From: Candidatus Poribacteria bacterium
Lineage (GTDB): Bacteria > Poribacteria > WGA-4E > PCPOR2b
Direction of reading: 5' to 3'
DNA length: 64,000 nt
Assembly (NCBI GenBank): GCA_965215015.1
Contig: OZ244042.1
Location: forward strand, 10,768-74,767
Shown here: piece by piece, positions 1 to 63,813 of the stretch
Layout: each line of letters begins with the position of its first letter
Numbering within the stretch: the stretch's first letter is position 1
Translations under genes and position numbers: made by a program
The notes under the pieces: generated by a model
What the model saw: only the letters and a program-made list of their open reading frames with translations
What the model was told of the DNA's origin: nothing
Databases searched by the model: none

Positions 1-3000
1 TCGTGGAATCTCTAACTCAATTCCCAATCCCTCATCTCTAAGAGGTTGAGCGACGCGCCCGGTTTGGTGAAGCTCTTCGATTTCTTTTTTTCCTTTTCTC
101 TGGAGAAGCACTCGATACCGATTTGCATCAAGAAAAAGGATAGCCCATTTCCCCGTTGGCGTGAGGCTTGAATCGAGGTGAATATAGGAGGTCCGTAATT
201 TTTGAACGCTTGTGTTTTCAGCTTGTGCTGAGGTCGTAAATTTTTCGGAGACTAAGTTTCCGGTATTATCGCGTAGCACCTCGGAGGGAAGCCGTTTCCA
301 AGCGTTAATATCCGTTTGCCATTGATAGATTGCGAGATTTTCGGTCTCTCTTTGTAAGGTGGGGTCAAATTCCGCCGTTGCAGGATTCAGCCCCCAATTT
401 GTCTGCAAGCGATCTTTCAAAGCGTCCAAATCGAAACGGAACCTGAGGGCCGCAGCTTCGACCAACTGCTCGGCACTAGAATGTAATTCAACTTGGTATG
501 CTCTATTTTGTAATATTGGTAGGCGGGGAAGCGAGACAAAACGGAGATCGGGTTGAAATGAGATAGATGGCTCGATTGTATTGATGGAAAGCGTTATTAT
601 GCGTTCAGGAGCGGCTCCGATTGGGAGCACAACGTCAAATACCCGATCCAAGCTAAACGCGGTGAGTGCTTCATCAACCTTCAGGGTAAATTCGTTGACC
701 ACGAGAGATTGGGACCCTTTGTTATCAAACGAGCGGGGCTCATCGAGCTTGCCGATCACCTCATCCGTGTGGTCGTCATCGGGGGATTCCGGATCCGCAA
801 AGACATGAATCTGATGAAAGCCGGTGGACAACGGTTCTGCAAGGATTAACGTCACTATTGTTTCTTGAAGATGCGTGTCCCCCGACTGCCACGCATCAAT
901 TCTGACCAAGACACGCCCAAGCACATCTGCTTCAGGGTCAATTTGGTTATCCCCGTTCCGATCCGGATCCCCTTCTGCGAACCAAACCTCGATGACTACA
1001 TCAACTTTTTGGCCGCCATCATTGATAAGCTTGGTGGTAAGGGTATAAGCTCTTTTCTCCTTTGAAAAGGTGTAACGGAGGGGAGCGACTGCTGCCGAAG
1101 CGATGGCGATATTTGCTCCTTCCGGGACCTTGAGCGGTTTTTTGTCGGTACTGATGGTATGATTGGTCCGGTCAGTCACTACGATTTGATACTGCACCGT
1201 CTGCCCCCCTTTTGGGAGGGGAATTGCGGTTTGCAGCTTGTACCAATGCCCTCCGTTCACCGCGGGGGTGGGTGGTACCGGATGGGGTATCATCGCCACC
1301 GTACGTTCCTTGGATTCCACGGTGTCGCTCCAAACTACTTCTATCGACTTTAGCCCTGTGGGACCTTCATTGTCCACTATCAACGCGGAAAGGTTCAGTG
1401 TATTGGTGACTTGGGAGTCAATATCTTCACGGACTTCGAGGATAGCAGGTTGGTATGCCCAAAACTGCGCCCCTCCCACCGCTGTCCGCTGATCGTCGAA
1501 AGCGAGGAGGCGGACAATACCTTGTCCGGCGGGGATATCTTCTGGAATAGGAATGCGAATCGCGCCGAACTCGCCCTGCCATACTTGGATACCAGCCTTT
1601 TGTTGCTGCAAATTGTTGAGCAAATTATCGTCTAAATTGTTGGCAAACAGTGCTATTGCGGACATCGTTCCTGCGCTGAAATCGGTCGCCTTGCGAAACT
1701 CGACCGCTCCCCTAATCGGCGAAAATTGGTGCTGCCCAACAACATTATGACGAATGATCAGCTCTTTGTTCGGATCGACTGCAACGCTCTCCAACTCGAC
1801 CTGAATCTCTAGTTCTGGCACAGCGAGGCGCGTCGCTGGATCACCGAAGAGGGTATACTGCATTGCACTAGGGAGCCACAGTTGTGGTGCGGTAATCATA
1901 AACTGCGTCTTAGCATTGGTGATGATTGCGCCGAGTGTTGACGGTTTAACAGTGAAGATGGAGGTAAAGAGATTTCTATCGAACGCCGCATTGACTGTTG
2001 CAAAGGTCAAGCGGGTCGCGCTCAGGACACCGATGGCACCGGCACTGCCCATCAGAAATTGCTCGCTTAAACTACGCTGCCCAAATTGCAGGGGTTGATC
2101 AAATTGCCCATTGAGACATGTTGTGGTGATAATAAACGGCAGGTGCACATTTCGCAAGCCCTCTGCATCTGCGATGCGGAAAATGCCCTCATCCGCCCAC
2201 GTTTGGGTGCCACCGTGCCCCGAATATTCGACGACGAGAACGCCCTCATTAATTGTCGCCAGAATCGCTCGATTGGTGCGTTCTGGACTCCCAATCTGCC
2301 GTAGGTACACCTTGCGAGTATCGTAGGCGACAGGAATATATTCCTCAATGAGTTGCTTGCTGGATCGCTCAAAAATGTCGTCCCCGACGTTGTCCACCTC
2401 ATTATCTGCTACCTGCATCAGCCTGCCCTGCCATAAGCCGGGCTGTCGCTTTGCCTCATAATTGATAATCTTTTTCACCATACCGTCCAACTCGTGTGGT
2501 AGCTGTACTGGAAGTCGCCCAATAAACATATCCGGCAGTGGGTCATCGCCACTGACTGTGACAAAGCGGTGATCCATCGCAGTTTCTCCACTCGCCGGTG
2601 CCCAACCGTGAAACGTCGGCACGTAGATGGGATAGAGGTCGTAGTCCTTGTCGAGCACACTCCTATATAGCTTGACAATTGCCCCTTTATAATCATAGTG
2701 TGCATCACCGACTAACAGGACGTATGTAGGCTTGGGCGCGCGCCAATGGGTGTAGGTGTAGTGCAAAAACTTTTGGATAGCGAGGGGGTTAAAAATTCCG
2801 TGGTTGAATTGATCATACACCTCTTCGACATCAACCACCATGACTGACAAGCCCTGTGACCGCCGAAAATCTGCAAGGGACTGAATGTTATTAATAAAAT
2901 CTCCGTGAGAGATAATAATGTAATCCGCTTGATTCCCAGGATTGCTGATTACCGATGGCTTGGCAGGAGCAATGTGATTCACCTGAATATATCGCGCTTG

Positions 3001-4812
3001 CTCAACCACAAAGTAGCCGACTAGCGATGTTACATTATCCTCAAAGGTTAGCTGGAAATTCCCGTCCACCCGTTCAACCCGACCGTTGGCGAGTTTTGCA
3101 ACTATACTTCCATTGCGAATCTGATACACATCAACATCGGGACGATGAATGTTTGTTAAACGGTACTGAACTCGTCCCGTCCTTCTCGGCTCGGTTTCCG
3201 AGTTAAACCCAAGCACTCCTTCGGACACCTTAAAGGTATGCCAATAATCGATCTCAAACCAATCCAGATAGAAATCGGGTTCGCCTGCCGGTGTACCGTT
3301 GCGGGCTTCGGCACGAATTCTCAGAACATTTGTATCCTCCGAATGACTAAATCGCCACGGTTCAATTTGGCGCGCAACCAACGGTGCGGCTTGCTGCCGC
3401 CACTCAGCGACTTGCCCAAGTTGTGCGTCGTTAAATAGAATGCGCGCTTGATGTCTGGCGTTCCTTTCACGGGAGGCCCCTTGAAACTTAATTCGGATCT
3501 CGGCATTCCGATTTACCAACCCTCTCGGTGCTACATGATGGAGTTGAATCGGAAAATCCTTTTGGCTCAATCTATTGTCTACTCCACCTGTCAGGCTTTC
3601 CCAGAAATAGTGATCTGCCTGCTCAGATTTCACATCAAGCAGTCGGTCATACTTAAGGTCCTGTTCAAAGCGTACAGTTTTCTTGAAAGCAAGCGGAGTG
3701 GGCACATTTGGCGTTTTTGGAGCAGCGTCTCTAACAGCTACCTGTGAACGACCAACACCGCCCCAACTCAACCAATACACGTTAGTATCAGTAAATCTAT
3801 CCCCAATTGGGGCTTGCCCATAAAACACAATTGAGTCGTCCCGATCGAATCTACCGTCTGTATCGTGGTCAAAGATGTGAAGCCCAACCCGGCGTCCGCG
3901 GTTTTCCATTTTAAGGGTCTCAAGTTCAATATCCACAGAATTGGCACCGGCGCGTCTAAGCTGACTATATGTTACTTGATAAATCCCTGTTTGGCTGATC
4001 ACAATCTTATATCTATTTAAGGGTTTACTAGCGTGTTGCACTGCAGGGGCAGCTGGGGCACTTTGGGGTGAGCGTCGCCATGCCTTCGCCTGATCGTAAT
4101 TGAGCAGTTTTACCTGAAAGAGTTGCTCAAAAGCCTGTGATGATTCTACGACAGAGAACGGGGGAGCAAGTTGTCTTGAAGTCCGGTGGGATTGGGGAGA
4201 TGAGTGAGTCCAATTGAAGTCAATTCGGATCAGCAGCTCGTGGTAAATTTTGAGCTGCAATCTGGCAGGATTATACTGAATCGGTTGAATTTGGAGCTGT
4301 GCAACCCGCTGTCCACGGATAAGCCCGATCGGCGTGACCTCTACGAGTTTGGTCGGGTAGGGACGATCCTGTCTGTAAAAGTTCGTGTCCATGATGAGTG
4401 TTGGTTGGGGAGTGGCGAGATTCAATGGTTGGGCGGGGATAATGCGCTCGGTTTGGCGGACTTCAAGTCGTGAGTCAATCACGGTCACATGCGATGAGGC
4501 ATCAATGGGAATCCCAATTAGCTGGGAGTAAGCAGGTAGGCTAGGGCGTCCCACATCTGTCGTGAGGGTTGCCCCTGTGAAAGAAATCCTCGTGAAGGTG
4601 CGTCTATTGATTTTTTGCGAACTAAATTGCAGCGTAGGCACCTCAAATTTGACGAGGAGACTATCCGTGTCTGCTTGGATAATTTGTAACGGAGATTTCG
4701 CGGCGACAGCAGCGACAGAAAGCCAAAAAGTTAGAAGTGTGTGAAACGTGATGCGTAAGTGAACCGATGATACCGGTTCCAGCTGTTGATTTCCTCTTAA
4801 CATAGACACCAT
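1..4812 (-). CDS. Peptidase C25 (gingipain/PorU-like) family giant secreted protein; 3' end runs off window start. Absent from supplied ORF track.
   Basis: Hand translation of the minus strand is open from ATG 4812 (second ATG 4803) to nt 1. An in-frame TAA lies just upstream at 4833-4831, and only short ORFs occur on + in this span. N-terminus MVSMLRGNQ...LLTFWLSVAAVAA is signal-peptide-like. ISHGDFINN...YVLLVGDAHYDYKG, EYSGHGGTQTW (His, about nt 2215-2230) and ITTTCLNGQFDQP (Cys, about nt 2096-2120) match the C25 catalytic dyad. Confidence 0.8.
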   Translation of the reverse strand, partial: MVSMLRGNQQLEPVSSVHLRITFHTLLTFWLSVAAVAAKSPLQIIQADTDSLLVKFEVPTLQFSSQKINRRTFTRISFTGATLTTDVGRPSLPAYSQLIGIPIDASSHVTVIDSRLEVRQTERIIPAQPLNLATPQPTLIMDTNFYRQDRPYPTKLVEVTPIGLIRGQRVAQLQIQPIQYNPARLQLKIYHELLIRIDFNWTHSSPQSHRTSRQLAPPFSVVESSQAFEQLFQVKLLNYDQAKAWRRSPQSAPAAPAVQHASKPLNRYKIVISQTGIYQVTYSQLRRAGANSVDIELETLKMENRGRRVGLHIFDHDTDGRFDRDDSIVFYGQAPIGDRFTDTNVYWLSWGGVGRSQVAVRDAAPKTPNVPTPLAFKKTVRFEQDLKYDRLLDVKSEQADHYFWESLTGGVDNRLSQKDFPIQLHHVAPRGLVNRNAEIRIKFQGASRERNARHQARILFNDAQLGQVAEWRQQAAPLVARQIEPWRFSHSEDTNVLRIRAEARNGTPAGEPDFYLDWFEIDYWHTFKVSEGVLGFNSETEPRRTGRVQYRLTNIHRPDVDVYQIRNGSIVAKLANGRVERVDGNFQLTFEDNVTSLVGYFVVEQARYIQVNHIAPAKPSVISNPGNQADYIIISHGDFINNIQSLADFRRSQGLSVMVVDVEEVYDQFNHGIFNPLAIQKFLHYTYTHWRAPKPTYVLLVGDAHYDYKGAIVKLYRSVLDKDYDLYPIYVPTFHGWAPASGETAMDHRFVTVSGDDPLPDMFIGRLPVQLPHELDGMVKKIINYEAKRQPGLWQGRLMQVADNEVDNVGDDIFERSSKQLIEEYIPVAYDTRKVYLRQIGSPERTNRAILATINEGVLVVEYSGHGGTQTWADEGIFRIADAEGLRNVHLPFIITTTCLNGQFDQPLQFGQRSLSEQFLMGSAGAIGVLSATRLTFATVNAAFDRNLFTSIFTVKPSTLGAIITNAKTQFMITAPQLWLPSAMQYTLFGDPATRLAVPELEIQVELESVAVDPNKELIIRHNVVGQHQFSPIRGAVEFRKATDFSAGTMSAIALFANNLDDNLLNNLQQQKAGIQVWQGEFGAIRIPIPEDIPAGQGIVRLLAFDDQRTAVGGAQFWAYQPAILEVREDIDSQVTNTLNLSALIVDNEGPTGLKSIEVVWSDTVESKERTVAMIPHPVPPTPAVNGGHWYKLQTAIPLPKGGQTVQYQIVVTDRTNHTISTDKKPLKVPEGANIAIASAAVAPLRYTFSKEKRAYTLTTKLINDGGQKVDVVIEVWFAEGDPDRNGDNQIDPEADVLGRVLVRIDAWQSGDTHLQETIVTLILAEPLSTGFHQIHVFADPESPDDDHTDEVIGKLDEPRSFDNKGSQSLVVNEFTLKVDEALTAFSLDRVFDVVLPIGAAPERIITLSINTIEPSISFQPDLRFVSLPRLPILQNRAYQVELHSSAEQLVEAAALRFRFDLDALKDRLQTNWGLNPATAEFDPTLQRETENLAIYQWQTDINAWKRLPSEVLRDNTGNLVSEKFTTSAQAENTSVQKLRTSYIHLDSSLTPTGKWAILFLDANRYRVLLQRKGKKEIEELHQTGRVAQPLRDEGLGIELEIPR

Positions 4813-4842
4813 ACTTTTCAGTTGGAAAATTTACCCCAAATG

Positions 4843-9098: not shown

Positions 9099-9121
9099 TG
9101 GCTCTGCCCGACTTGAGACCC

Positions 9122-9177
9122 CTATCTGTATCCGCGCAATCTGCTGAATCCGTGATTCAGACAATTATGATGAGCAC
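9122..9177. repeat. Right-end fragment of the MITE-like element
   Basis: ctatctgtatccgcgcaatctgctgaatccgtgattcagacaattatgatgagcac matches the right arm of the 56308-56540 copy. Confidence 0.5.
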
Positions 9178-9346: not shown

Positions 9347-9391
9347 ATAGGAGTTACGCACTTGAGTTTGTAGTCGCGCAATTCAACCGCC
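9347..9391 (+). repeat. Module X intergenic repeat, copy 1
   Basis: ataggagttacgcacttgagtttgtagtcgcgcaattcaacc; shares the 5' tatgaatag lead with copy 5. Confidence 0.7.
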
Positions 9392-9601
9392 TAAAAAAGA
9401 CAGGATCCACAGACCTGTCCAAAAACTTAGTGGAGGAACTTCTGGCCCTAAGCAAAATCTCAAGCAACCTCTAAAGAAGGATTGAGAGAAATGTCCTCAC
9501 AGAATGCTAAAACTACGCTTTTTGTGTAATATAACAAATGGCGTAGCGTAACTTAGACGATATTACGATAATTTTATCGCATCACCAAAATTCTATATCT
9601 A

Positions 9602-27316: not shown

Positions 27317-27336
27317 AATTCATTTTCCTATGAGTT

Positions 27337-27461
27337 GTGCTCATAAAGTAGTAGGCACGACCCGCATGCCGTAAACAACACAACCGTTATGACACATTGC
27401 TGGGTTAACACGCAACTGCCATCTGTTGAATCCGTGATTCAGACAATAATTATGCACACCC
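27337..27461. mobile_element. Shorter (125 bp), degenerate copy of the same MITE-like element
   Basis: GTGCTCATAA...CACGCAACTGCCATCTGTTGAATCCGTGATTCAGACAATAATTATGCACAC; the right TIR is mutated. Confidence 0.5.
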
Positions 27462-30007: not shown

Positions 30008-30392
30008 AGAAAATAAGGGGCGGGAGCACATCAATCATTCCAGAATCGGACGATTTTCCTAACTGCTTGATATTGCCGTTCTCGCTCATCTTTTATCTTA
30101 GCTTGCAGTTACCGTTTTTCAGCATCGGTGAACTTCCTCATTGGCAATCATCCCCTTGGGTGCTTTGTCCGAGCAGGCGTACTCGACTAACTACAACGGC
30201 TAACGACTTTTTGACTGTTTCCCCACTGTTTTGAACGGGCAAATCCGTTTTTGGAGGCTTTGGTTCTTACAAGTTGGCGTAGTATCGTCTTCTATCTTTC
30301 ACTAGCGTATAAGATTGTTAGAAGAATTATATGATAAAAATATCTATTAAGACTACACCCCCATTTTTTTATAAAAACTTAATTTGATACAA

Positions 30393-30450
30393 TTAGGAGT
30401 TACGCCCTTGAGTGTGTAGTAATGCCATTCAACCCGCGTCAAGAGGATAA
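30393..30450 (+). repeat. Module X intergenic repeat, copy 2 (diverged)
   Basis: ttaggagttacgcccttgagtgtgtagtaatgccattcaacccgcgtc; followed by hairpin ggtatacgccgtatgcc and G-rich palindromes. Confidence 0.65.
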
Positions 30451-30480
30451 ATTGATCGACAGTAGTCGGTATACGCCGTA

Positions 30481-30592
30481 TGCCGTACCCCCCTTCCCCT
30501 GCAAGCAGGGGATGGGGCGTAAGTGAGGAGAAATAGACTCAATGAGTCTGTCTCCCCCTGCTTGCGGGGGGACTAAGGGGGGTCTTAGGGGA
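30481..30592. repeat. G/C-rich hairpin repeats (variant copies)
   Basis: ccccccttcccctgcaagcaggggatgggg and tctccccctgcttgcggggggactaaggggggtc, flanking the palindrome gactcaatgagtc. Confidence 0.7.
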
Positions 30593-30647
30593 TAAATCGC
30601 TGAACTACAAGGCTTCGGGTCAACTGCGTAAGGCCTAACAATTTTGA

Positions 30648-33638: not shown

Positions 33639-33744
33639 GCACCGGTTAGGCAAGCGAGAATAAGTCACCCCTGCAATTGGATTAAACAGGTACTCGCTCA
33701 AAGCATCCAATAGAAGGTTTTATTTGGGTCAATTGGAGAAAATC

Positions 33745-33846
33745 TGACGAAAGAAATGAAACAGGAACCTTTCCTGGCGAATCGGAGAACGGGAAGCCGG
33801 TTCGATCGCTTTCTCGTTTTCTAACTCTCCCGTTTTCTTTTTTTTG
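33745..33846 (+). repeat. Partial module Z copy (3' half with terminator-like T-runs)
   Basis: aaatgaaacaggaacctttcctggcgaatcggagaacgggaagccggttcgatcgctttctcgttttct...cccgttttctttttttt aligns to the 3' part of Z. Confidence 0.5.
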
Positions 33847-33966
33847 CGTTCCCCTTCCCCCTGCTTGCGGGGGGATTGAGGGGGGTCCCTTCCCTCCCCC
33901 TGCTTGCGGGAGGACTGAGGGGGGTGCCTTCCCTCCCCCTGCTCGCGGGGGGACTGAGGGGGGTGT
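33847..33966 (+). repeat. Three tandem copies of a ~39-bp G/C-rich hairpin repeat
   Basis: ccttccctccccctgcttgcggggggactgaggggggtg x3, with the first and third copies slightly variant. Confidence 0.85.
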
Positions 33967-34104
33967 CCCCGCGTTTTATTAAAAGCCAGTAACTACTTAT
34001 TGCCACAAAAAATACTGCGTAACGAGTAATGCGTCAGAAGATCGTTACTATTACTTACGCATCACGGATTATGCATCCACTACGACTGCATCTGGAGTGC
34101 GTAA

Positions 34105-39483: not shown

Positions 39484-40401
39484 TCATTTTCCGTATTTGA
39501 ACCGTGCAATCGCGCCCTGCTCTACTAATTCTGCGCGGGCGTAATGCGCGGGCATCTGAGGCGATTTCCATCGCCCGGCAACCTGCATATTCACAACAGA
39601 CGCCCCGGCTTGGGCAAGCGAGACAGCAGAACCGATACGAAGGGAGTGTCCAGAAATCTTGCCTTCCACACCCGCCGCGCGTGCCCTACGCTTGATAACC
39701 TTCCTTACACCATCAATCGTTAGCCTGCCCCCAGTTATGTTATCACCCCGACGAATCCACCGAAAGAGTGGACCATCAGTGATATCCCCCGATTCACAAT
39801 ACCGCTTTATCGCCTCCCGCGTGGGATCCCCAATATACAGCGTCACACCGAGGACGCCCGCCGTACCCGGGTGGGTCTTTGACTGATAAACCCTCAACGC
39901 ACTATCAACATCCTCTACATCTACCGCGACCGCTTCACTAATGCGTAACAGACAGTCACTCATCAGTCGAATCAGGGCCGAATCTCTCAGTCCAGCAACG
40001 GTTTCCTCCGCTTCGGCAAGCGCACAGATTCTCTCTACTTCATCCCACGTTATGCCATCCATCTGTCCTCGGCCTCTGCCTTTGCCTTTACGTCGAATGC
40101 CGGCGAGTGCCTTTTCCGTAATCTCAAAGGAGAGCTCCTTTGCCCCCACGCTGTGATTCTTCACCATCCATTTGACTGCAGCAACGATTTTACTGATGGT
40201 CGATGGCGACCTTCCGTTTTGATACAACTCTGTGATATAGTTTGCGAGTAGGTTATCGCTCAGGGAATGTCCATCCAACCAAATTTCCAACTGTTGCATC
40301 GCGAGACGATACGTCTCGACGGTGCTCGGTGCAACGCTCGCTTTGACTAATTCCTCCGTTTCGTCGCTGATAACGACCTGCTTCCAAGCTGATGCATTCA
40401 T
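39484..40401 (-). CDS. Tyrosine site-specific recombinase/integrase (XerC/D-like size)
   Basis: C-terminal catalytic signature ...GHSLRIGSAVSLAQAG...VAGRWKSPQMPAHYAR (R..H.LR...GRW.S...Y). Confidence 0.85.
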   Translation of the reverse strand: MNASAWKQVVISDETEELVKASVAPSTVETYRLAMQQLEIWLDGHSLSDNLLANYITELYQNGRSPSTISKIVAAVKWMVKNHSVGAKELSFEITEKALAGIRRKGKGRGRGQMDGITWDEVERICALAEAEETVAGLRDSALIRLMSDCLLRISEAVAVDVEDVDSALRVYQSKTHPGTAGVLGVTLYIGDPTREAIKRYCESGDITDGPLFRWIRRGDNITGGRLTIDGVRKVIKRRARAAGVEGKISGHSLRIGSAVSLAQAGASVVNMQVAGRWKSPQMPAHYARAELVEQGAIARFKYGK

Positions 40402-40448: not shown

Positions 40449-40735
40449 GAATCCTGATTCTGACAAGTTACACCTCAGCCTCCAAAATCATCGCCGCATT
40501 CTGTCTGAATCGGGATTTACTGGATTTTAGGATTCACAGGATTGACTCTATCCATTGCCATTGGCTATCCTGAAAATCATTCCATCTTGAGAATCCTGAT
40601 TCTGACAAGTTACACCTCAACCTCCAAAATCATCGCGACATTTGTCTGAATCGGGATTTACTGGATTTTAGGATTCACAGGATTGACTCTATCCATTGCC
40701 ATTGGCTATCCTGAAAATCCTTCCATCTTGAGAAT
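40449..40735 (+). repeat. Two tandem copies of a 142-bp unit with four GGATT iterons each, upstream of the integrase gene
   Basis: Units 40449-40590 and 40591-40732 are about 95% identical. Each contains cGGGATTtactGGATTttaGGATTcacaGGATTgact plus an inverted AATCC. The array is bracketed by the 8-bp direct repeat TTCTATAG (40442-40449 and 40741-40748). Confidence 0.85.
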
Positions 40736-41000: not shown

Positions 41001-41121
41001 CTTTATGAGCCCCCCTCAGTTAGTTTTCGGTCATGGGATCTGCTTATGCCAGTTGTCCAGGCCGTCTTTTATCCGTGTCCTCCGTCAATCGGTGCTTATC
41101 CGTGATTCAGACAATAATATA
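41001..41121. repeat. Two degenerate right-end remnants of the MITE-like element
   Basis: ctttatgagcccccctcagttagtt (41001-41025) and cttatccgtgattcagacaataatat (41096-41121). Confidence 0.4.
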
Positions 41122-41377
41122 GGAGAATTAAAGGACCCTATTTTTACCGCTTTTTCGCTTGATTGGTGTTATTAATCTTGATATAATATCCACAACCGAA
41201 CACTTTAGAATACATAGCAGCCAATATAAGAAGGCTGCTGTTAAGAAATTGTGCAACAGACCGTGAGCTTTCAAGAAAAAACTCGGGCTCTCTTCGCGCC
41301 ATGTACTCTCTTTAAGCCTTACGCAGCTGATACCAAGCAAAGGCCTCAGAAAAACTATCTATAAGGAGACACTCCCT

Positions 41378-44300
41378 ATGTTTAAGCATCATTTCATTTC
41401 CGATTCGATGGGAATTTGCAAACAACGGCAGCACCTCATCACACTTATTAGTCTATTGATGTGCATCGTAGGTTATCAAAATGTATACCCCCAACAACAG
41501 ATTGCCCAAGATGCCTACGCTATTTTTCAACAGAGCTGCCTCATCTGCCATGGACCCGACGGTGCCTATCGAGAGACACTCCTAATGGAACACAACTCAC
41601 TCATCGAAAACGGGACAGTGGTCCCCGGAAACCCCAATGCCTCCGAACTGTATAACCGGCTCCTGACGACTGAGATAGCCAAACGGATGCCCCTTGGACA
41701 ACCCCGGCTATCCACTCAAGCGATTGCCACCATCCGAAACTGGATATTCGCTGGCGCACCCGATTGGGCGGCAACCCCCGCAGCCGATAGACGCTTTATC
41801 TCTCCCGGTGAAATACTCAATACCATCGAGACTCACGTCATGTCGCTGGCACCGTTTGACCGTGCCTTTGCCCGGTACTTCACAATGACACACCTCTATA
41901 ACGCAGGTGAGACCACGCGAGCTCTTGACAGCTATCGTAACGGCCTCTCGAAACTGGTCAATAGCCTCTCATGGGGGAGTACCGTCACCAACCCCCAACC
42001 CATTGACCGACAAGGCACCATCCTCTACATTGACCTGCGACACTACGAGTGGGATCGCAATGATGGGTGGGGGCAGATAGAAGCGGCATATCCCTATCAC
42101 ATCGGGTTTGATGCACCGACACAGACCGCGCTACGGGCCCAACTGACCCGGTTACAGACGGCGATGAAGTCTGATATACCATCGGTTCATGTCGACTGGT
42201 TTATAGCACAAGCCTCTTTACCTCCACTCTACCATGATTTACTCTCTCTCCCCTTAACGGATAAAGAGTTAGAGACCCGATTAGAAGTCGATGTTGTCCG
42301 TAACCTGCAAAATGCACCGGGGGTGCGTGTCTGGCGGGCCGGCACCAACAATTCAGGTGTCTCCAATCACAACCGAGTGATAGAACGCCACACCTCTCGC
42401 TATGGTGCCTATTGGAAAAGTTACGACTTTGGGGGGAGTGTGGGTACACAGAACATCTTCACCCATCCCCTGTCATTCACCCATGATGGTGGTGAGGTTA
42501 TCTTCAACCTACCCAACGGGTTACAGGGATACTACCTTGCCAATGGGGCCGGTTTTCGCCTAAATGAGGCACCGATAAACATTGTTTCTAATCCCGCAGC
42601 GAGTGATCCGACGGTGCGGAATGGTTTATCCTGTTTCGGTTGCCACACAGAGGGTATGAAGCCATTTGAGGACCAAGTCCGTTCGGTGATAGCGAATAAT
42701 ACCGCTCCCACTTATGACAAAGCGCAGGCGTTGCGGCTCTACGTGGCAAAATCAGAGATGAACGCGCTTGTGGGTGAAGATATGAATAGGTACAGGGTTG
42801 CCCTTGAAGCGACGGGCGGGGCGTTTGATGACATTGAACCCATCTCCCGTTTCCACGAGGCATTTCAGGAGGAGGTAGACACAGCACACGCCGCAGCCGC
42901 GGTTGGGTTAGAGCCGGAGGCGTTCTTGGAAAAGATACGTGAGAATATAGGGCTACAGGATATCGGCTTGCTGGTGTTAGACAGTGAGGCTGGAAGTATG
43001 AAACGGGACACCTGGACATCGAGTTTTCGGGATATAGTTTTTGCGTTGGATTTCCCGGAGCGTTTCACCCCTCCCACGGCGATAACCCCGCCGGTAGTGA
43101 CACCGGGTACGGTTGTGTATATCCCGGACCCAAACCTGCGTGCGGCAATAGCGGAGGCACTGGACAAGAGCCCCAATGCTCCGATTACTGCCGAGGAGAT
43201 GGCAAAGTTGAGCAGGCTCGATGTGCCGCGCAGGGGCATCCGTGATTTGACAGGGCTGCAGTATGCAACCAATCTGACACGGTTAAATATTAACGACAAT
43301 CAGGTCTCCGACATCTCACCGCTAGCGGGCTTGATCGAACTGCGCGAGCTCCGGATTCACGACAACGACAACCTCTTGTCCGATATATCGCCTGTGAGAG
43401 GCTTAACCAATCTCACTTATCTTCAGTTTGACCGCTCTACAGTCTCTGATATATCTCCCGTGAGAGGCTTAACCAATCTTACTTACCTTGAGTTTGACAA
43501 CACTTTGGTATCCGATATATCTCCCGTGAGAGGCTTAACAAATCTCATTACCCTTAAGTTTGGTCACACTTCGGTATCCGATATATCTCCGGTGAGGAAC
43601 TTAACAAATCTCACTCGCCTTGAGTTTGAGCACACTTTGGTATCTAACCTATTGCCAATTGCGAGATTAATCAATCTGGAGCGGTTACATTTGGGAAGTG
43701 ATAATATCTCCGACCTGTCGCCGGTTTCAGGATTAATCAACCTCAAACACATTAGTGGTGGTTGGGGCAGCTCTATATCCGATTTATCGCCCTTGGCAGG
43801 CTTAACAAAACTGGAGCAGATACATATGCACGGCGGAAAGATATCAGATCTCACGCCTTTAGCAGGCCTAACCGGCTTGAAGGAACTGCATTTTCGGGAC
43901 AACGACATATCGAATCTCGCCCCCCTCGCAGGGTTAACACAGCTAACTCGTCTGCAGCTCGCGAACAACAATATATCGGATCTCTCCCCCCTTGCAGGGT
44001 TAACCAACTTGAAATGGCTAGTGATCCATGACAACGAGATTTCTGACATTTCTCCGCTGCAGGGACTCCGCGAGAATATAACGACGTTCGTTTGGCATGA
44101 CAACCCGGGATTCCCAAAAGTGGGACCGTCAATCGAGGGGCCGTGGTTATGGGTTGTATTACCGGAAACAAGACCGAGTAGCAGTAAGGATTTACTGTCA
44201 GAAGTGAGCGGGGGGGCGGTAACAGAGACGGAGATTGCTACCCATGGGGCAACCGTGGGAAGTTCTGTAGGTGATGATGTATGGACCTACCGCACACTCC

Positions 44301-45649
44301 CGCCTACGGGCTGGGCTAATGTTCGCCAAATGCTTGACGGCCACATCGATGGTGCCAGCCTCTACGGCACGGTGTCCTTGCATTCACCACGACAACAGGA
44401 CACAACACTATACGTTGGCAGTCATAACGATTTTAAGGTCTGGCTCAACGGGACTTTGATTTACGAGTCTCTCCGTTACCATGCGAGTTTCGGTTACACG
44501 GATTCTCTGCCGGTCACGCTGAAGCAGGGAAGAAATGTGCTATTGGTAGCCGTTAGAGCCCAGTATAATGCCTTTTTTGGGTTTGAACCCGGCACCGAAT
44601 ATACTGTGGCGAACCCCGGTGTCGGATACACTTTTTCCAAGACACCCATTCATATAGGCGATACCTTTACCCTTAATCTTCGCGCCGAAACGGTCTCCGA
44701 CTTGGCAGGCTGGCAGTTCGATATTGCCTTTGACCCGGCTGCCCTCGAAGCCATTGACGTCAGCGAAGGCAATTTCCTGAAGGCAGATGGGGGCTCCACC
44801 TTCTTTCAGGGTAGGAGCATCGATAACGCGACAGGTAAAATCTCAGGACTCAGTGCGGCGCGATTGGCTGCCCAAGGTGTAAATGGCACCGGCACCCTGC
44901 TGCAGGTCAGGTTCAGGGCGAAATCTGCCGGTGAAACAGAGTTGGTGCTGCAAAACTTTCAGTTTGGCTCCATCACCGGCGATACTATCCCTGCAGGACC
45001 GCGTCAAATTCGCATCGCTGTCGAGGGACGCCTGGCGACCGGGGACGTGAATCGAGATGGTGTGGTCAGCATTTTGGATCTCATTCTCGTCGCACAGCAG
45101 TTGGGGAAAAAGGTGGCCCCCAACTCACCGGTAGATGTCAACCGAGATGGTGTTGTCAGCATCCTTGACCTTATCGGCATCGCGCAGGGGATCGGGAACA
45201 CCACAGCACCTGCCGCCCCGGCACCCTCCTCACTGGAGGTAAATCCTGAGACCATAGCGGCATGGATTGCACAGGCACAGGTGGCAGATGACGGTTCCCT
45301 TGCCTTCAAACAGGGTATCGCAAATCTCCAAAACCTGTTAGCCGCGTTGATTCCTGAAGAGACTGCGTTGTTGGCAAACTATCCGAATCCGTTTAACCCG
45401 GAGACGTGGATACCGTATCAGTTGGCAACCCCTGCGGAAGTTACATTGACCATCTATGATAGGAACGGGGAGGTCGTTCGCCGGTTAGCCGTGGGACATC
45501 GAGGCGCGGGTATGTATCAGAGTCAAAACCGTGCGCTATATTGGGACGGACGGAATCAGCTGGGTGAACCTGTCGCCAGTGGCCTCTATTTTTACACACT
45601 GACAGCAGGCACATTCACGGGGACGCGGCGGATGTTGATACTCAAATAA
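41378..45649 (+). CDS. Giant secreted multidomain protein: dihaem cytochrome c region + leucine-rich repeats + cohesin-like + dockerin-like + T9SS C-terminal sorting domain
   Basis: CxxCH haem motifs at about nt 41536 (SCLICHG) and about nt 42633 (CFGCHTEG). About 15 22-aa LRRs (LTNLTYLxFDxTxVSDISPVRG). Cohesin-like WQFDIAFDPAALEAIDV. Two dockerin repeats DVNRDGVVSILDL. C-terminal NYPNPFNPETWIPYQL...WDGRNQLGEPVASGLYFYTL...RMLILK. Confidence 0.85.
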   Translation: MFKHHFISDSMGICKQRQHLITLISLLMCIVGYQNVYPQQQIAQDAYAIFQQSCLICHGPDGAYRETLLMEHNSLIENGTVVPGNPNASELYNRLLTTEIAKRMPLGQPRLSTQAIATIRNWIFAGAPDWAATPAADRRFISPGEILNTIETHVMSLAPFDRAFARYFTMTHLYNAGETTRALDSYRNGLSKLVNSLSWGSTVTNPQPIDRQGTILYIDLRHYEWDRNDGWGQIEAAYPYHIGFDAPTQTALRAQLTRLQTAMKSDIPSVHVDWFIAQASLPPLYHDLLSLPLTDKELETRLEVDVVRNLQNAPGVRVWRAGTNNSGVSNHNRVIERHTSRYGAYWKSYDFGGSVGTQNIFTHPLSFTHDGGEVIFNLPNGLQGYYLANGAGFRLNEAPINIVSNPAASDPTVRNGLSCFGCHTEGMKPFEDQVRSVIANNTAPTYDKAQALRLYVAKSEMNALVGEDMNRYRVALEATGGAFDDIEPISRFHEAFQEEVDTAHAAAAVGLEPEAFLEKIRENIGLQDIGLLVLDSEAGSMKRDTWTSSFRDIVFALDFPERFTPPTAITPPVVTPGTVVYIPDPNLRAAIAEALDKSPNAPITAEEMAKLSRLDVPRRGIRDLTGLQYATNLTRLNINDNQVSDISPLAGLIELRELRIHDNDNLLSDISPVRGLTNLTYLQFDRSTVSDISPVRGLTNLTYLEFDNTLVSDISPVRGLTNLITLKFGHTSVSDISPVRNLTNLTRLEFEHTLVSNLLPIARLINLERLHLGSDNISDLSPVSGLINLKHISGGWGSSISDLSPLAGLTKLEQIHMHGGKISDLTPLAGLTGLKELHFRDNDISNLAPLAGLTQLTRLQLANNNISDLSPLAGLTNLKWLVIHDNEISDISPLQGLRENITTFVWHDNPGFPKVGPSIEGPWLWVVLPETRPSSSKDLLSEVSGGAVTETEIATHGATVGSSVGDDVWTYRTLPPTGWANVRQMLDGHIDGASLYGTVSLHSPRQQDTTLYVGSHNDFKVWLNGTLIYESLRYHASFGYTDSLPVTLKQGRNVLLVAVRAQYNAFFGFEPGTEYTVANPGVGYTFSKTPIHIGDTFTLNLRAETVSDLAGWQFDIAFDPAALEAIDVSEGNFLKADGGSTFFQGRSIDNATGKISGLSAARLAAQGVNGTGTLLQVRFRAKSAGETELVLQNFQFGSITGDTIPAGPRQIRIAVEGRLATGDVNRDGVVSILDLILVAQQLGKKVAPNSPVDVNRDGVVSILDLIGIAQGIGNTTAPAAPAPSSLEVNPETIAAWIAQAQVADDGSLAFKQGIANLQNLLAALIPEETALLANYPNPFNPETWIPYQLATPAEVTLTIYDRNGEVVRRLAVGHRGAGMYQSQNRALYWDGRNQLGEPVASGLYFYTLTAGTFTGTRRMLILK
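43300..44060 (+). repeat. Intragenic ~66-bp tandem DNA repeats encoding the LRR units of the giant protein
   Basis: Consecutive units such as gatatatctcccgtgagaggcttaaccaatctcacttatcttcagtttgacc are repeated with high nucleotide identity. Confidence 0.8.
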
Positions 45650-45740
45650 ACCAGATGGGCTTGTTTCACTTTAGCCATACGGAAATTGCTGTGGAACTAT
45701 TGTATGTAGGTCGATTTGCCAAAATCGACAATCCCTATCG

Positions 45741-45890
45741 GGGATTCACGGTTTCATCGGAAGAAGAACCAAGAAACGAAACAGCAACCTTCCCTGACGA
45801 AAGGAAAGACGGGAAGCCAGTTCTCTCGCTTTCTTTTTTTCCGCTCCCCTTCCCCCTGCTTGCGGGGGGACTGAGGGGGGTCCGTCTTAT
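45741..45890 (+). ncRNA. Module Z repeat (candidate ~150-nt structured RNA ending in an intrinsic terminator), copy 1
   Basis: ggggattcacggtttcatcgg...gacgggaagccagttctc + T-run, then G-rich palindrome; repeated in tandem at 46004-46165. Confidence 0.45.
45811..45840 (+). terminator. Intrinsic terminator-like hairpin + U-tract (inside module Z copy 1)
   Basis: gggaagccagttctc + tcgctttcttttttt, 160 nt downstream of the giant gene's stop. Confidence 0.5.
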
Positions 45891-45899
45891 AGAATACCA

Positions 45900-46165
45900 G
45901 AACCCAATGAGTGGATAGGAGCTTTTCTCTGAATTTAACGCAAAATCGCCCCCCCGCAAGGAGGAGGGGGCACCAGTCCCGATGCTGTTGCCCTCTAAAG
46001 GGAATGCTTACCGCATCGGGGATTCACGGTTTCATCGGGAGAAGACCCAAGAAACGAAACCGGAACCTGCCCTGACGAAAGGAAAGACGGGAAGCCGGTT
46101 CCCTCGTTTTCTTTTTTTTCGTTCCCCTTCCCCCTGCTTGCGGGGGGACTGAGGGGGGTCCGTCT
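45900..46165 (+). ncRNA. Module Y (45900-46000) + module Z copy 2 (46004-46165) composite
   Basis: Y: caatgagtggataggagcttttctctgaatttaacgcaaa, also at 63838. Z: as copy 1, with terminator gggaagccggttccc + T8. Confidence 0.45.
46089..46120 (+). terminator. Intrinsic terminator-like hairpin + U-tract (inside module Z copy 2)
   Basis: gggaagccggttccc + tcgttttcttttttttcg. Confidence 0.5.
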
Positions 46166-46255
46166 TTATTTCTGTTGGTCGTCGTGCTATAATGAAAGTA
46201 TTGAAATTTGGTTTCTAAACCGATTTGATGCCCCAAACGCAGAAAGGGAATTAGA

Positions 46256-46768: not shown

Positions 46769-46852
46769 TAGGAGTTACGCACCTGAGTTTGTGGTAACGC
46801 CATTCAACCCACGTCTTTAAGGGTTACGGTATACAGAGTATACCGTAACCCT
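46769..46852 (+). repeat. Module X intergenic repeat, copy 3, plus downstream hairpin
   Basis: ataggagttacgcacctgagtttgtggtaacgccattcaacccacgtctttaaggg, then ggttacggtatacAGAgtataccgtaacc. Confidence 0.75.
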
Positions 46853-46905
46853 CCTGCCCCCGCTGAGCCCCCTAACCCCCAACCCCCCGCAAGCGGGGGA
46901 AGGGG
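46853..46905 (-). repeat. G/C-rich hairpin repeat in reverse orientation
   Basis: ctgcccccgctgagccccctaacccccaaccccccgcaagcgggggaagggggg. Confidence 0.7.
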
Positions 46906-46960
46906 GGATAATGAACCAATGAGCAAATGGTTTTCCCGTTTCACCTGGTTATTGAGGCCT

Positions 46961-48268: not shown

Positions 48269-48423
48269 AGTCAGTTTCGTTTTCCCTCTACACCTCTATC
48301 GAACCTTGCTGACAAGACTCCATGCCTTTAGGCTAGGGACAGCTGGTTAGGTATCACCTAACATTATAGTCAGTCGAAGTGCGTTGATATATAAAAACTG
48401 GTGAATTTATAAGTAAAATAGAG

Positions 48424-48505
48424 TTAGGAGCTCCACACTTGAGTTTGTAGTAACGCCATTCGACCCACGTCTTTAAGGGAGTCAGCATACAGAGTATGCC
48501 ATCCC
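48424..48505 (+). repeat. Module X intergenic repeat, copy 4, plus hairpin
   Basis: ttaggagctccacacttgagtttgtagtaacgccattcgacccacgtctttaaggga, then gcatacAGAgtatgc. Confidence 0.75.
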
Positions 48506-48990
48506 CCCCTTCCCCCGCTAAATACCCTGTGGGTTGTCCGTCAGTTCCTGGCTCATTGAGTCTACCCCCCTCAATCCCCCCGAAAGCAGGGGGAGACAGA
48601 ACCACCCCCCTCAATCCCCCCGCAAGCAGGGGGAACGTATCGGTAGTTGGCACCTCTTTGCCCCTCCCCGCTTGCGGGGAGCTCTGTTCCGCCACGCTTA
48701 CGGCCTCTTCCCCTCCCTGCTTGCGGGGAGGGGCTAGGGGTGGGGTTCTTAGGGGGACACCCCACCGGGTTGCGGCCCCGCTTGCGCCCTTCCCCCTGCT
48801 AAACACCCTGTAGGTTGTCCGTCAGTTCCTGGCTCATTGAGTCTACCCCCCTCAATCCCCCCGAAAGCAGGGCGAAGAGATACCGTATCGGTATTTGGCA
48901 CTTCTTTTCCCATCACCCCTTGCAGCCTCTTCCCCTCCCTGCTCGCGGGGAGGGGCTAGGGGTGGGGTTCTTGCGGTTTATGAATCTCGA
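48496..48990. repeat. Complex array of G/C-rich hairpin repeats, including a ~190-bp unit duplicated at 48510-48700 and 48790-48980
   Basis: Repeated ccccctcaatccccccg(a/c)aagcaggggg and cctcttcccctccctgcttgcggggaggggctaggggtggggttctt. The sub-motif ccctgtgggttgtccgtcagttcctggctcattgagtcta also occurs at 56247-56290. Confidence 0.8.
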
Positions 48991-49038
48991 CTTACAGCGT
49001 TTGCAGAATCGGCGACAGTAAAATGCCAACACGGCATA

Positions 49039-56223: not shown

Positions 56224-56307
56224 CGCAAGTTGCCACTTAAAGCCCAAATGCCCGGTGGGTTGGCCGCCAATTCTTGGCTCATTGAGCCTAGAACAGTTTA
56301 GTGAGGG

Positions 56308-56540
56308 GTGCTCATAAAGGAGTCGGCACGCCCAGCGTGCCGTAAGCCCCACAATCGTTATAGTATATGGCTTGGCTAACACGCAACTGTCATTGAACTC
56401 CCAACATAATTTGAAGAACAAAGTACCTCCAACCCCGTAGGTGGGGCATCTTGCCCTATCTCCCACCTGGGGCCCATATCTGTATCCGTGCAATCTGCTG
56501 CATCTGCTAAATTCGAGATTCAGACAATTATTATGAGCAC
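56308..56540. mobile_element. MITE-like nonautonomous element (233 bp) with ~16-bp terminal inverted repeats
   Basis: Left end TGAGGGGTGCTCATAA, right end TTATGAGCACGCCTCA, with GTTTAG immediately outside both ends (possible TSD). Internally homologous to the 27337-27461 copy. Sits between the metallopeptidase and permease genes. Confidence 0.6.
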
Positions 56541-62880: not shown

Positions 62881-62900
62881 ACAACTGTCTCTATGAATAG

Positions 62901-62980
62901 ATAGGAGTTACGCACTTGGGTTTGTAATATCGCAATTCAACCCACGTCTTTAAGGGAGTCGGCATACGGCTTATACCGAT
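62901..62980 (+). repeat. Module X intergenic repeat, copy 5, plus hairpin
   Basis: ataggagttacgcacttgggtttgtaatatcgcaattcaacccacgtctttaaggga, then tcggcatacggcttataccgat. Confidence 0.75.
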
Positions 62981-62982
62981 TC

Positions 62983-63021
62983 CCCCCTTCCCCCTGCTTG
63001 CGGGGGGACTGAGGGGGGCGA
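62983..63021 (+). repeat. G/C-rich hairpin repeat
   Basis: ccccccttccccctgcttgcggggggactgaggggggcg. Confidence 0.8.
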
Positions 63022-63135
63022 GGATACCATGACTATGGCGCCATAATCCTGGCTCAACCAACCATAACCATGGCGCGACCTTTTTTGGTGTTGGCTTTGA
63101 ACGTTCAACTGCGTAAATCCTAAATAGAAATAATT

Positions 63136-63813
63136 ATGCGGTCAATAAATGAATGCAAGGCTATCATTTTTGATATGGATGGGTTGATGATCGACACCGA
63201 AAGGCTTGCGCTCAGAGCATGGCAGCTGGCGGGAGCTGATTTCGGATTTCCCATTAGCGATGATATTTTTATTACTATAGTAGGTCGAAATCGCAGAGAT
63301 TCGGACCGCACCCTAGTTGAAATTTTTGGAACCGATTTCCCAGTTGAGGCTATGCGAAACAGGTATCGCACGTACCTCGATAGCTGGATTGACGAAGGCA
63401 AGTTATCTATTAAGCCTGGACTTCTGGAGTTGTTAGGCTTCCTAGACAGGATTTCAATGCCAAAGGCGGTAGCGACCTCTACAGAATATAAGCGAGCGAT
63501 TCACAAATTATCACTCACAAATCTGTTAGACCATTTCCCTATAGTGATTGCTGGTGATCAAGTGCAAAAGGGTAAACCCGCACCGGATATTTTTCTCATC
63601 ACCGCGGCGCGACTAGAGGTTCTCCCGGAGAATTGTCTGGTCCTGGAAGACTCAGACGCCGGCATTCAGGCAGCCCACGAGGCAAGAATGACACCTGTTA
63701 TGATTCCAGACATGAAGCCCCCCTCAGAGAAAAGCCTCGCTTTTGCCTACAGAATTTTTGGAGGGTTAAGGGAGTTTCACGATTACTTTCGAGAAAGTTT
63801 AAGGTTGGTGTAA
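63136..63813 (+). CDS. HAD-IA family hydrolase (beta-phosphoglucomutase-like)
   Basis: Motif I KAIIFDMDGLMIDTE; later K/DD motifs. Confidence 0.85.
   Translation: MRSINECKAIIFDMDGLMIDTERLALRAWQLAGADFGFPISDDIFITIVGRNRRDSDRTLVEIFGTDFPVEAMRNRYRTYLDSWIDEGKLSIKPGLLELLGFLDRISMPKAVATSTEYKRAIHKLSLTNLLDHFPIVIAGDQVQKGKPAPDIFLITAARLEVLPENCLVLEDSDAGIQAAHEARMTPVMIPDMKPPSEKSLAFAYRIFGGLREFHDYFRESLRLV

What the first reader, a model, noticed from the sequence alone, without database searches (positions are those of the whole stretch)
62881..63021. Module X family: five-copy ~60-bp intergenic element always followed by a covarying hairpin and a G/C-rich palindrome
The consensus is ATAGGAGTTACGCACTTGAGTTTGTAGTAACGCCATTCAACCCACGTCTTTAAGGGA. 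Copies at 9347, 30393, 46769, 48424 and 62901 are 80-90% identical, on the + strand, in gene-free spacers; this one begins 21 nt after a stop codon. Each copy is followed by a hairpin whose sequence differs but whose pairing is maintained (ggttacggtatacAGAgtataccgtaacc, gcatacAGAgtatgc, ggtatacGCCgtatgcc, tcggcatacggcttataccga), and then by ccccctgcttgcggggggactgagggggg. Compensatory changes imply selection on RNA structure, so this may be a novel 3'-UTR/terminator RNA motif or a BIME-like mosaic element.
Basis: seen in the sequence. Interest (0 to 1): 0.6.

Follow-up and report, generated by a model that had tools for sequence, protein, structure and literature searches.

The report
Small mobile DNA element in Poribacteria
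The repeated 60-base "module" is the left end of a roughly 220-base miniature transposon (MITE) that has jumped into gaps between genes of a Poribacteria genome, so it is an ordinary kind of selfish DNA in a little-studied group, not a new RNA motif.

Summary
The five + strand copies of "module X" are real (0 expected by chance). Module X is not a free-standing RNA motif. It is the left arm of a 115-244 bp non-coding element whose right end (TCAACTGCGTAAnnCCTA) is the inverted complement of its left end (TAGGAGTTACGCACTTGA). All four full-length elements I could examine are flanked by 5-6 bp direct repeats: window copies 5 and 2, and two from other Poribacteria genomes. For the copy in the finding, five contigs from close relatives (94-95% identical flanking protein) carry the same two genes 25-28 nt apart. 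Three of them hold a single AATAGA exactly where the window has AATAGA, a 221-bp insert (62902-63122), then AATAGA. This is the signature of a MITE: terminal inverted repeats, a target-site duplication and an empty site. Copies 1, 3 and 4 keep only the left arm. The hairpin is present in 4 of 5 copies, but its covariation is not significant with n=4. The G/C-rich palindrome is a separate REP-like family with at least 11 sites, most of them away from module X. Rfam has no match and no terminator-like site is present. The transposase that moves the element was not found. Verdict: a new member of a known kind, of modest interest.

The parts
62896..62901 (.). Left copy of the target-site duplication AATAGA (copy 5)
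   Evidence: L007, L008 and L019 have a single AATAGA at this site. The window's left and right flanks overlap exactly on it.
62902..63122 (+). Full-length element, copy 5 (221 bp): the complete insertion that contains the finding
   Evidence: It is absent from five syntenic contigs of relatives, L007, L008, L019, L020 and L021. Its ends TAGGAGTTACGCACTTG and the reverse complement of the right end, TAGGATTTACGCAGTTG, match at 15/17 positions. It folds with the termini paired, z = -3.6. It holds no credible ORF.
62902..62957 (+). 'Module X', the left terminal/subterminal arm, including the 12-17 nt left inverted repeat
   Evidence: The right-end motif search also hits the left ends on the opposite strand.
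62959..62979 (+). Internal hairpin tcggcatacggcttataccga, specific to the subfamily in this genome
   Evidence: The motif occurs only at the four module X copies.
62982..63018 (+). G/C-rich two-tier palindrome unit CCCCCCTTCCCCCTGCTTGCGGGGGGACTGAGGGGGG, a member of a separate REP-like family carried inside the element
   Evidence: The core is found at 11 sites in the window, most without module X. It is absent from all relatives' loci.
63105..63122 (+). Right terminal inverted repeat TCAACTGCGTAAATCCTA
63123..63128 (.). Right copy of the target-site duplication AATAGA; the HAD hydrolase gene starts at 63136
30394..30637 (+). Full-length element, copy 2 (244 bp), flanked by ACAAT at 30389-30393 and 30638-30642. 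Its right end lies 22 nt before the sulfatase start codon at 30660.
   Evidence: The element is absent from syntenic L017/L018, but the boundary there is not clean.
9348..9391 (+). Copy 1: left arm only (about 42-44 nt), with no homologous hairpin, no right end and no flanking repeat
46769..46908 (+). Copy 3: left arm, a perfect 14-bp hairpin and an inverted G/C unit. It has no right end or flanking repeat and lies between convergent genes.
   Evidence: (right boundary found by comparison with L014)
48425..48503 (+). Copy 4: left arm and hairpin, leading into a 770-nt array of other repeats (48269-49038) that occupies the place of a TPP-enzyme gene present in relatives

Best explanation
Module X is the left arm of a miniature inverted-repeat transposable element (MITE), a short non-coding, non-autonomous DNA transposon. 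The element begins TAGGAGTTACGC... and ends ...GCGTAAnnCCTA.

The inferred mechanism is as follows. A transposase encoded elsewhere recognises the two inverted ends. It inserts the element into A/T-rich intergenic sites through a staggered cut, and repair of that cut duplicates 5 (occasionally 6) bp of the target.

The subfamily in this genome carries an internal hairpin and one or more units of an unrelated G/C-rich REP-like palindrome between the arms. Copies 1, 3 and 4 have lost their right halves through later rearrangement and are probably immobile.

Shown here: terminal inverted repeats, target-site duplications, the empty site, the multi-copy and intergenic distribution, and the lack of coding capacity. 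Inferred: the transposase (not found), the cut-and-paste chemistry, and any effect on neighbouring genes.
For: 1. Terminal inverted repeats.
- A search with the right-end motif returns the left ends on the opposite strand.
- The left end and the reverse complement of the right end match at 12-17 nt. In copy 2 and L001 a gapped match extends to about 40-48 nt.
- Full elements fold with their termini paired.

2. Direct repeats at the exact boundaries of 4 of 4 independent full-length elements in three genomes.
- AATAGA for copy 5.
- ACAAT for copy 2.
- TATCT for L001.
- AAGGT for L009, identical in L010-L012.

3. Empty site.
- L007, L008 and L019 encode an MR_MLE protein 95% identical to the window's. 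They have MR_MLE and HAD genes 28 nt apart with one AATAGA.
- The window has 255 nt there, with AATAGA duplicated around the 221-bp insert.
- L020 and L021 are also empty.

4. The element is non-coding, multi-copy and intergenic.

5. It is specific to this lineage. About 120 kb from syntenic relatives holds no copy. Two other Poribacteria genomes gave one pattern match each.

6. It matches no known RNA family and shows no terminator signature.
Against: - No transposase with matching ends was found.
- Three of the five window copies lack a right end and a flanking duplication, so for them the MITE origin is inferred from homology of the left arm only.
- Only one insertion has a clean empty site. 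The copy 2 comparison is blurred by divergence.
- The ends (TAGG...) do not match any IS family that I can name from memory, and no IS database was available to check.
- All five window copies point the same way. Several full-length copies also place their right end just upstream of a co-oriented start codon, which pure junk insertion does not predict. With n=5, P is about 0.06.
Confidence: 0.85

Rival explanations
1. Module X, the hairpin and the palindrome together form a cis-acting structured RNA, such as a 3'-UTR stabiliser, a terminator or an intercistronic processing site. On this reading selection on RNA pairing maintains it.
For: - The hairpin is retained in four copies, with changes on both sides at 4 of 14 pairs.
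- Whole elements fold better than shuffles, with z from -3.4 to -4.4.
- Copy 5 lies 21 nt after a stop codon, inside what is a 28-nt intercistronic spacer in relatives.
Against: - Rfam has no match at E<=1.
- No + strand hairpin with a T-run is present in any copy.
- Covariation is not beyond controls: 32 of 500 shuffles do as well, with n=4.
- In copy 3 three of four adjacent bases change at once (AGTC to TTAC), giving a perfect 14-bp palindrome. That looks like a single DNA-level quasi-palindrome correction rather than stepwise compensation.
- Copy 4 is antisense to both neighbours and copy 3 lies between convergent genes.
- The strong folding is explained by the inverted terminal repeats.
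- The empty site and target duplication show that the sequence arrived by insertion.
Confidence: 0.05
2. The whole block is a REP/BIME-type element: short extragenic palindromes spread by a RAYT (IS200/IS605-like tyrosine transposase) and assembled into mosaics.
For: - The G/C-rich unit is a roughly 38-nt imperfect palindrome.
- It occurs in both orientations and in tandem with a 39-nt period at 33834-33966.
- It is always intergenic.
- The region is a mosaic of modules.
Against: - Module X itself is not a palindrome.
- The element has 12-17 nt terminal inverted repeats and a 5-6 bp target duplication. REP/RAYT and IS200/IS605 insertion does not produce these (my own knowledge of the family).
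- No Y1 transposase is encoded in the window.
- This reading may hold for the G/C unit alone, but it was not tested.
Confidence: 0.06
3. Module X is a repeated protein-binding or regulatory site, such as an operator or promoter cassette, native to these intergenic regions and conserved by selection rather than spread by transposition.
For: - The right ends of copies 2, 5 and L009 lie 12-22 nt upstream of co-oriented gene starts.
- All five window copies share one orientation.
Against: - The flanking genes are functionally unrelated: SAICAR synthetase, sulfatase, MFS transporter, GFO oxidoreductase and HAD hydrolase.
- Orthologous spacers in relatives lack the sequence entirely.
- No sigma-70-like promoter is found on the + strand of any copy.
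Confidence: 0.03

Closest known systems
Bacterial MITEs in general, e.g. Correia/NEMIS elements of Neisseria, RUP of Streptococcus pneumoniae and Nezha of cyanobacteria (from my own knowledge)
   Same: - Size of 100-250 bp, non-coding.
- Terminal inverted repeats that make the element a long hairpin.
- Target-site duplication.
- Many intergenic copies.
- Presence/absence differences between close relatives.
- Often inserted close to gene starts and co-transcribed.
   Different: - The sequence is unrelated.
- The duplication is 5-6 bp rather than the TA of Correia and RUP (IS630-type).
- The ends begin TAGG.
- The interior is highly variable and carries nested units of another repeat family.
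- The partner transposase is unknown.
TIMEs (Tn3-derived inverted-repeat miniature elements) and other elements that make 5-bp duplications, such as MITEs derived from IS1380/ISEcp1-like or IS21-like elements (from my own knowledge)
   Same: - A 5-bp duplication of an A/T-rich target.
- Relatively long subterminal inverted similarity of about 40 nt.
   Different: - Tn3-family ends start GGGG, IS1380-family ends start CC and IS21-family ends start TG. These elements start TAGG.
- I found no evidence of alternative right ends for the truncated copies.
- Family assignment was not possible.
BOX elements of Streptococcus pneumoniae (modular boxA-boxB(n)-boxC) (from my own knowledge)
   Same: A modular build, with conserved end modules and a variable number and kind of internal modules.
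   Different: The modules are unrelated in sequence. Here an insertion with a target duplication and an empty site is directly documented.
REP / BIME elements of Enterobacteria and Pseudomonas
   Same: The G/C-rich palindrome units resemble REPs: about 38 nt, both orientations, tandem arrays and intergenic location.
   Different: - Module X and the complete element have inverted terminal repeats and target duplications, which REPs lack.
- No RAYT was seen in the window.

Membership tests
MITE (miniature inverted-repeat transposable element) | Short (less than about 500 bp) and without coding capacity | tested here: met
   The elements are 115-244 bp. Copy 5 contains only spurious antisense ORFs of 43-56 aa.
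MITE (miniature inverted-repeat transposable element) | Terminal inverted repeats | tested here: met
   TAGGnnTTACGC at one end and GCGTAAnnCCTA at the other match at 12-17 nt with 1-3 mismatches in all four full-length elements.
MITE (miniature inverted-repeat transposable element) | Target-site duplication of fixed length flanking the element | tested here: met
   AATAGA, ACAAT, TATCT and AAGGT sit at the exact boundaries of 4 of 4 full-length elements. The three truncated copies have none.
MITE (miniature inverted-repeat transposable element) | Insertion polymorphism: an empty site with a single copy of the target in a relative | tested here: met
   For copy 5, L007, L008 and L019 have one AATAGA and a 28-nt spacer, and L020/L021 are also empty. 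For copy 2 the element is absent from L017/L018 but the junction is not clean.
MITE (miniature inverted-repeat transposable element) | Multiple dispersed copies in a genome | tested here: met
   There are five copies in 64 kb. The genome-wide count could not be obtained.
MITE (miniature inverted-repeat transposable element) | A related autonomous element (IS/transposon) with the same ends that encodes the transposase | not testable with these tools
   The window has no transposase. The viral and plasmid collections gave nothing.
REP / BIME | The unit is a 20-40 nt imperfect palindrome, without terminal inverted repeats or target duplication at the element level | tested here: not met
   Module X is not a palindrome, and the complete element has inverted ends and a target duplication. 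The nested G/C unit alone does fit the palindrome criterion.
REP / BIME | Association with a RAYT (Y1 transposase) gene flanked by the repeats | tested here: inconclusive
   None was found among 40 window proteins scanned against Pfam.
Intrinsic (Rho-independent) terminator | A G+C-rich hairpin immediately followed by a T/U run on the transcribed strand | tested here: not met
   There are no + strand terminator-like sites in any of the five copies.
Any described RNA family (Rfam 15) | A covariance-model match | tested here: not met
   There were no matches at the gathering threshold or at E<=1 in the window. In L001 the only hits were spurious miRNA-hairpin matches outside the element.

The most novel reading that the evidence does not exclude
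The element may be more than junk. It could be a mobile cis-regulatory or leader cassette that lands, in a preferred orientation, within about 25 nt upstream of start codons (copies 2, 5 and L009; L002 has a truncated copy similarly placed). In that position it would insert a strongly structured RNA segment, or an outward promoter, between genes that were tightly coupled. It would also ferry REP-like G/C palindromes to new sites and seed the repeat arrays that replace genes in this lineage. That would make it an active driver of operon rewiring and gene loss in a symbiont genome.
Probability: 0.1. Interest if true: 0.5.

Novelty: new member of a known kind. Interest (0 to 1): 0.3.

Why it matters
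- It replaces a tempting but unsupported reading (a new covarying RNA motif) with a documented one: a new MITE family with a clean empty site.
- I found no description of MITEs in Poribacteria in the searchable literature.
- The family and a companion REP-like palindrome appear to have expanded in this genome. There are 5 and at least 11 copies in 64 kb, against none in about 120-180 kb from relatives with 86-95% identical proteins.
- Two genes present in relatives are replaced by repeat arrays here, which hints that small repeats shape genome erosion in this lineage.
- Annotators should mask these elements before searching Poribacteria genomes for non-coding RNAs.

Tried and rejected
- Genome collection scan with the 27-base left-arm pattern: only one hit in each of two other Poribacteria MAGs. 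The source genome is not in that collection.
- Metagenome scan with a looser pattern: four hits, three of which look like chance. L006 has a 20-nt exact match and then no similarity.
- Viral contigs: none. Plasmid BLAST: none.
- Exact-protein look-ups for four window products failed. A cluster look-up gave no accession. So more of the source genome could not be fetched and the copy number is unknown.
- I first thought copy 3 had a degenerate right end at about 46935-46960. Comparison with L014 shows that stretch is native flank downstream of the MFS gene, so I rejected the idea.
- A possible degenerate right end for copy 1 (GCGTAACTTAGA, near 9545) has no flanking repeat and failed the 3-mismatch search. 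It is left as unproven.
- Alternative right ends (one-ended or ISEcp1-like transposition) for copies 1, 3 and 4: no downstream copy of the left-flank 5-mer sits in a sensible position.
- The TATAAAAACT...AATTT motif shared to the left of copies 2 and 4 is not a repeat family.
- Subterminal TTACGC repeats as multiple transposase sites are prominent only in L009, so I make no claim about them.
- Literature searches for Poribacteria MITEs or repeats, and for the end sequences, returned nothing relevant.

Full report
**The observation**

The window is about 50% G+C, and its proteins are closest to Candidatus Poribacteria. No hits are expected in shuffles. Over the first 42 nt the copies are 79-90% identical. 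All five lie between ORFs. Copy 5 begins 21 nt after the stop codon of an enolase-superfamily (MR_MLE) gene. This part of the finding is correct.

The statement that each copy is 'always followed' by a covarying hairpin and the quoted palindrome is only partly right.
- The homologous hairpin (GGYATAC-N3-KTATRCC) is present in copies 2-5 and nowhere else in the window.
- Copy 1 diverges after about 42 nt.
- The G/C-rich palindrome follows in the quoted orientation only in copies 2 and 5. It is inverted in copies 3 and 4 and absent from copy 1.
- The palindrome core CCCCYGCWWGCRGGGG has 11 sites in the window. Five of them have no module X nearby, including a three-unit tandem with a 39-nt period at 33834-33966. 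It is therefore a separate repeat family.

In a related copy from another Poribacteria MAG (L001) module X is followed about 140 nt later by TCAACTGCGTAAGTCCTG. That sequence is the reverse complement of the start of module X. Searching the window for this right-end motif returned two + strand sites (30620-30637 and 63105-63122). It also returned the module X starts themselves on the opposite strand, and the converse search gave the same result.

Copies 2 and 5 are therefore complete elements of 244 and 221 bp. Their left ends read TAGGAGTTACGC. The reverse complements of their right ends read TAGGCCTTACGC (copy 2) and TAGGATTTACGC (copy 5). In copy 2 and L001 a gapped inverted similarity extends to about 40-48 nt. 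A 115-bp version with the same ends occurs in four TARA ocean contigs (L009-L012). Full elements fold with their termini paired, with z from -3.4 to -4.4 for copy 5, L001 and copy 2. The 115-bp L009 version also pairs its termini but with a weak z of -1.6.

**Target-site duplications and an empty site**

Each of the four independent full-length elements is bracketed by a direct repeat at its exact boundaries:

| Element | Flanking repeat |
|---|---|
| Copy 5 | AATAGA |
| Copy 2 | ACAAT |
| L001 | TATCT |
| L009 | AAGGT |

For the copy in the finding I obtained the orthologous locus from relatives. I searched with the flanking MR_MLE protein and fetched the contigs encoding its closest homologues.
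- In L007, L008 and L019 (95% identical protein) the MR_MLE and HAD-hydrolase genes are 28 nt apart. The spacer reads ...tctatgAATAGAaataattATG.
- In the window the same flanks read ...tctatgAATAGA, then 221 bp, then AATAGAaataattATG.
- L020 and L021 (94%) are also empty, with a diverged 25-nt spacer.

The whole block is therefore one discrete insertion with a duplicated target: module X, hairpin, G/C palindrome, a unique 83-nt stretch and the right end. Because all five relatives are empty, the insertion is most simply derived in the window's lineage.

The copy 2 element is likewise absent from syntenic L017/L018 (91% identical protein). The junction there is blurred by an additional roughly 27-nt A/T-rich difference.

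**The incomplete copies**

Copies 1, 3 and 4 have the left arm but no right end and no flanking repeat. Comparison with L014 shows that the sequence to the right of copy 3 (from about 46909) is native flank. Copy 4 leads into a 770-nt array of other repeats. I interpret these as truncated or rearranged descendants. This rests on homology of the left arm only.

**What it is and how it most likely works**

The defining features of a miniature inverted-repeat transposable element are all met:
- small and non-coding;
- inverted ends;
- target duplication of constant length;
- an empty site;
- dispersed copies.

The inferred mechanism is mobilisation in trans by a transposase that binds the two ends and inserts through a 5-bp staggered cut at A/T-rich intergenic targets. 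The transposase was not found, and this is the main gap. Forty window proteins scanned against Pfam include no transposase. The only recombinase is a tyrosine recombinase that is syntenic in relatives. The remaining collections gave nothing. From memory, the ends (TAGG...) do not fit Tn3 (GGGG), IS1380 (CC), or IS3/IS21/IS481/Tn7 (TG), so I do not assign a family.

**The RNA-motif reading**

Several results count against it.
- Rfam has no match at gathering thresholds or at E<=1 in the window or in L001, L002 and L009.
- No + strand hairpin with a T-run is present in any copy.
- Orientation relative to neighbours is inconsistent. Copy 3 sits between convergent genes and copy 4 is antisense to both neighbours.
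- On the four hairpins, 80% of cells pair and 4 of 14 pairs show changes on both sides, but 32 of 500 column shuffles do as well. With n=4 this cannot carry the claim.
- In copy 3 the left arm differs from the other copies at three of four adjacent bases (AGTC to TTAC), giving a perfect 14-bp palindrome. This is what a single DNA-level quasi-palindrome correction would produce. It does not require selection on RNA. This last point is inference.
- Positions 5-6 of the terminal repeat are mismatched in every element without compensation. That fits protein-recognised ends better than a selected stem.

**Context**

About 120 kb from syntenic relatives holds no module X. About 180 kb of all fetched loci holds no G/C palindrome core. 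Both families therefore appear to have expanded in this lineage.

Two genes present in relatives have no trace in the window, and repeat arrays occupy their places:
- a TPP-enzyme gene between the GFO and MFS genes;
- a PhyH gene after the second sulfatase.

In copies 2, 5 and L009 the right end lies 12-22 nt upstream of a co-oriented gene start. This could reflect target preference for A/T-rich spacers or a regulatory effect. I could not test either.

**Verdict**

The sequence observation is largely real, but the element is larger than described and is a MITE. It is a new family in Poribacteria of a well-known kind of element. I found no paper describing it. Interest is modest at 0.3. Confidence in the MITE reading is 0.85.

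Noticed in passing
window 30496-30582, 33834-33966, 45846-45883, 46124-46161, 46871-46908, 48564-48634, 48845-48875, 62982-63018: A G/C-rich two-tier palindrome unit of about 38 nt (CCCCCCTTCCCCCTGCTTGCGGGGGGACTGAGGGGGG). It occurs in both orientations and in a 3x tandem with a 39-nt period, is always intergenic, and is absent from about 180 kb of related loci. It looks like a lineage-specific REP/BIME-like family. No RAYT is present in the window.
   Followed up: partly
window 48269-49038 versus L014 8082-9608 and L015 8247-9965: Relatives have a TPP-dependent enzyme gene between the GFO oxidoreductase and MFS transporter genes. The window has no trace of it by tblastn. A 770-nt array of nested and duplicated repeats, including module X copy 4, occupies the place.
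   Followed up: partly
window 33639-34104 versus L017 9201-10109: A PhyH-family gene present in the relative, between the second sulfatase and the class-III aminotransferase, is absent from the window. The gap holds a roughly 150-nt repeat plus three tandem G/C palindrome units.
   Followed up: partly
window 33746-33888, 45737-45888, 46015-46166: Another repeat family of about 150 nt (GAAACAGGAACCTTTCCTGGCGAA...), ending in a T-rich run followed by a G/C palindrome unit. Two copies lie 278 nt apart downstream of the LRR/cohesin/dockerin gene.
   Followed up: no
window 9108-9177, 27331-27459, 41098-41115, 56246-56540: A repeat family containing the perfect palindrome CTGAATC-CGT-GATTCAG followed by ACAATWAT, with longer shared flanks at two sites. 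It lies in intergenic regions upstream of + strand genes and could be another MITE or an operator-like site.
   Followed up: no
window 40502-40735: A near-perfect (99%) 141-nt tandem duplication lies immediately upstream of a tyrosine recombinase (Phage_integrase) gene at 39484-40401 (-). A Phage_integrase gene also lies at the corresponding end of the syntenic loci L014 and L015.
   Followed up: no
window 41313-41330 (- strand): A solo 18-mer resembling the element's right end (TCAGCTGCGTAAGGCTTA, 2 mismatches) lies 47 nt upstream of the 1423-aa LRR/cohesin/dockerin gene. No partner left end is present. It may be a remnant or chance.
   Followed up: no
L006 4537-4556 (Ga0247727_10055746): A 20-nt exact match to the left end of copy 5 occurs in a G+C-rich metagenome contig, next to what looks like coding sequence, with no similarity beyond it. 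Its origin is unclear. It could be a solo end in an unrelated organism or coincidence.
   Followed up: no
window 1-4830 (- strand): A very large ORF of at least 1610 aa runs off the left edge of the window. It has peptidase C25 (gingipain-like) and propeptide domains. The window also encodes an LRR/cohesin/dockerin protein with 66-nt periodic repeats (41378-45649).
   Followed up: no
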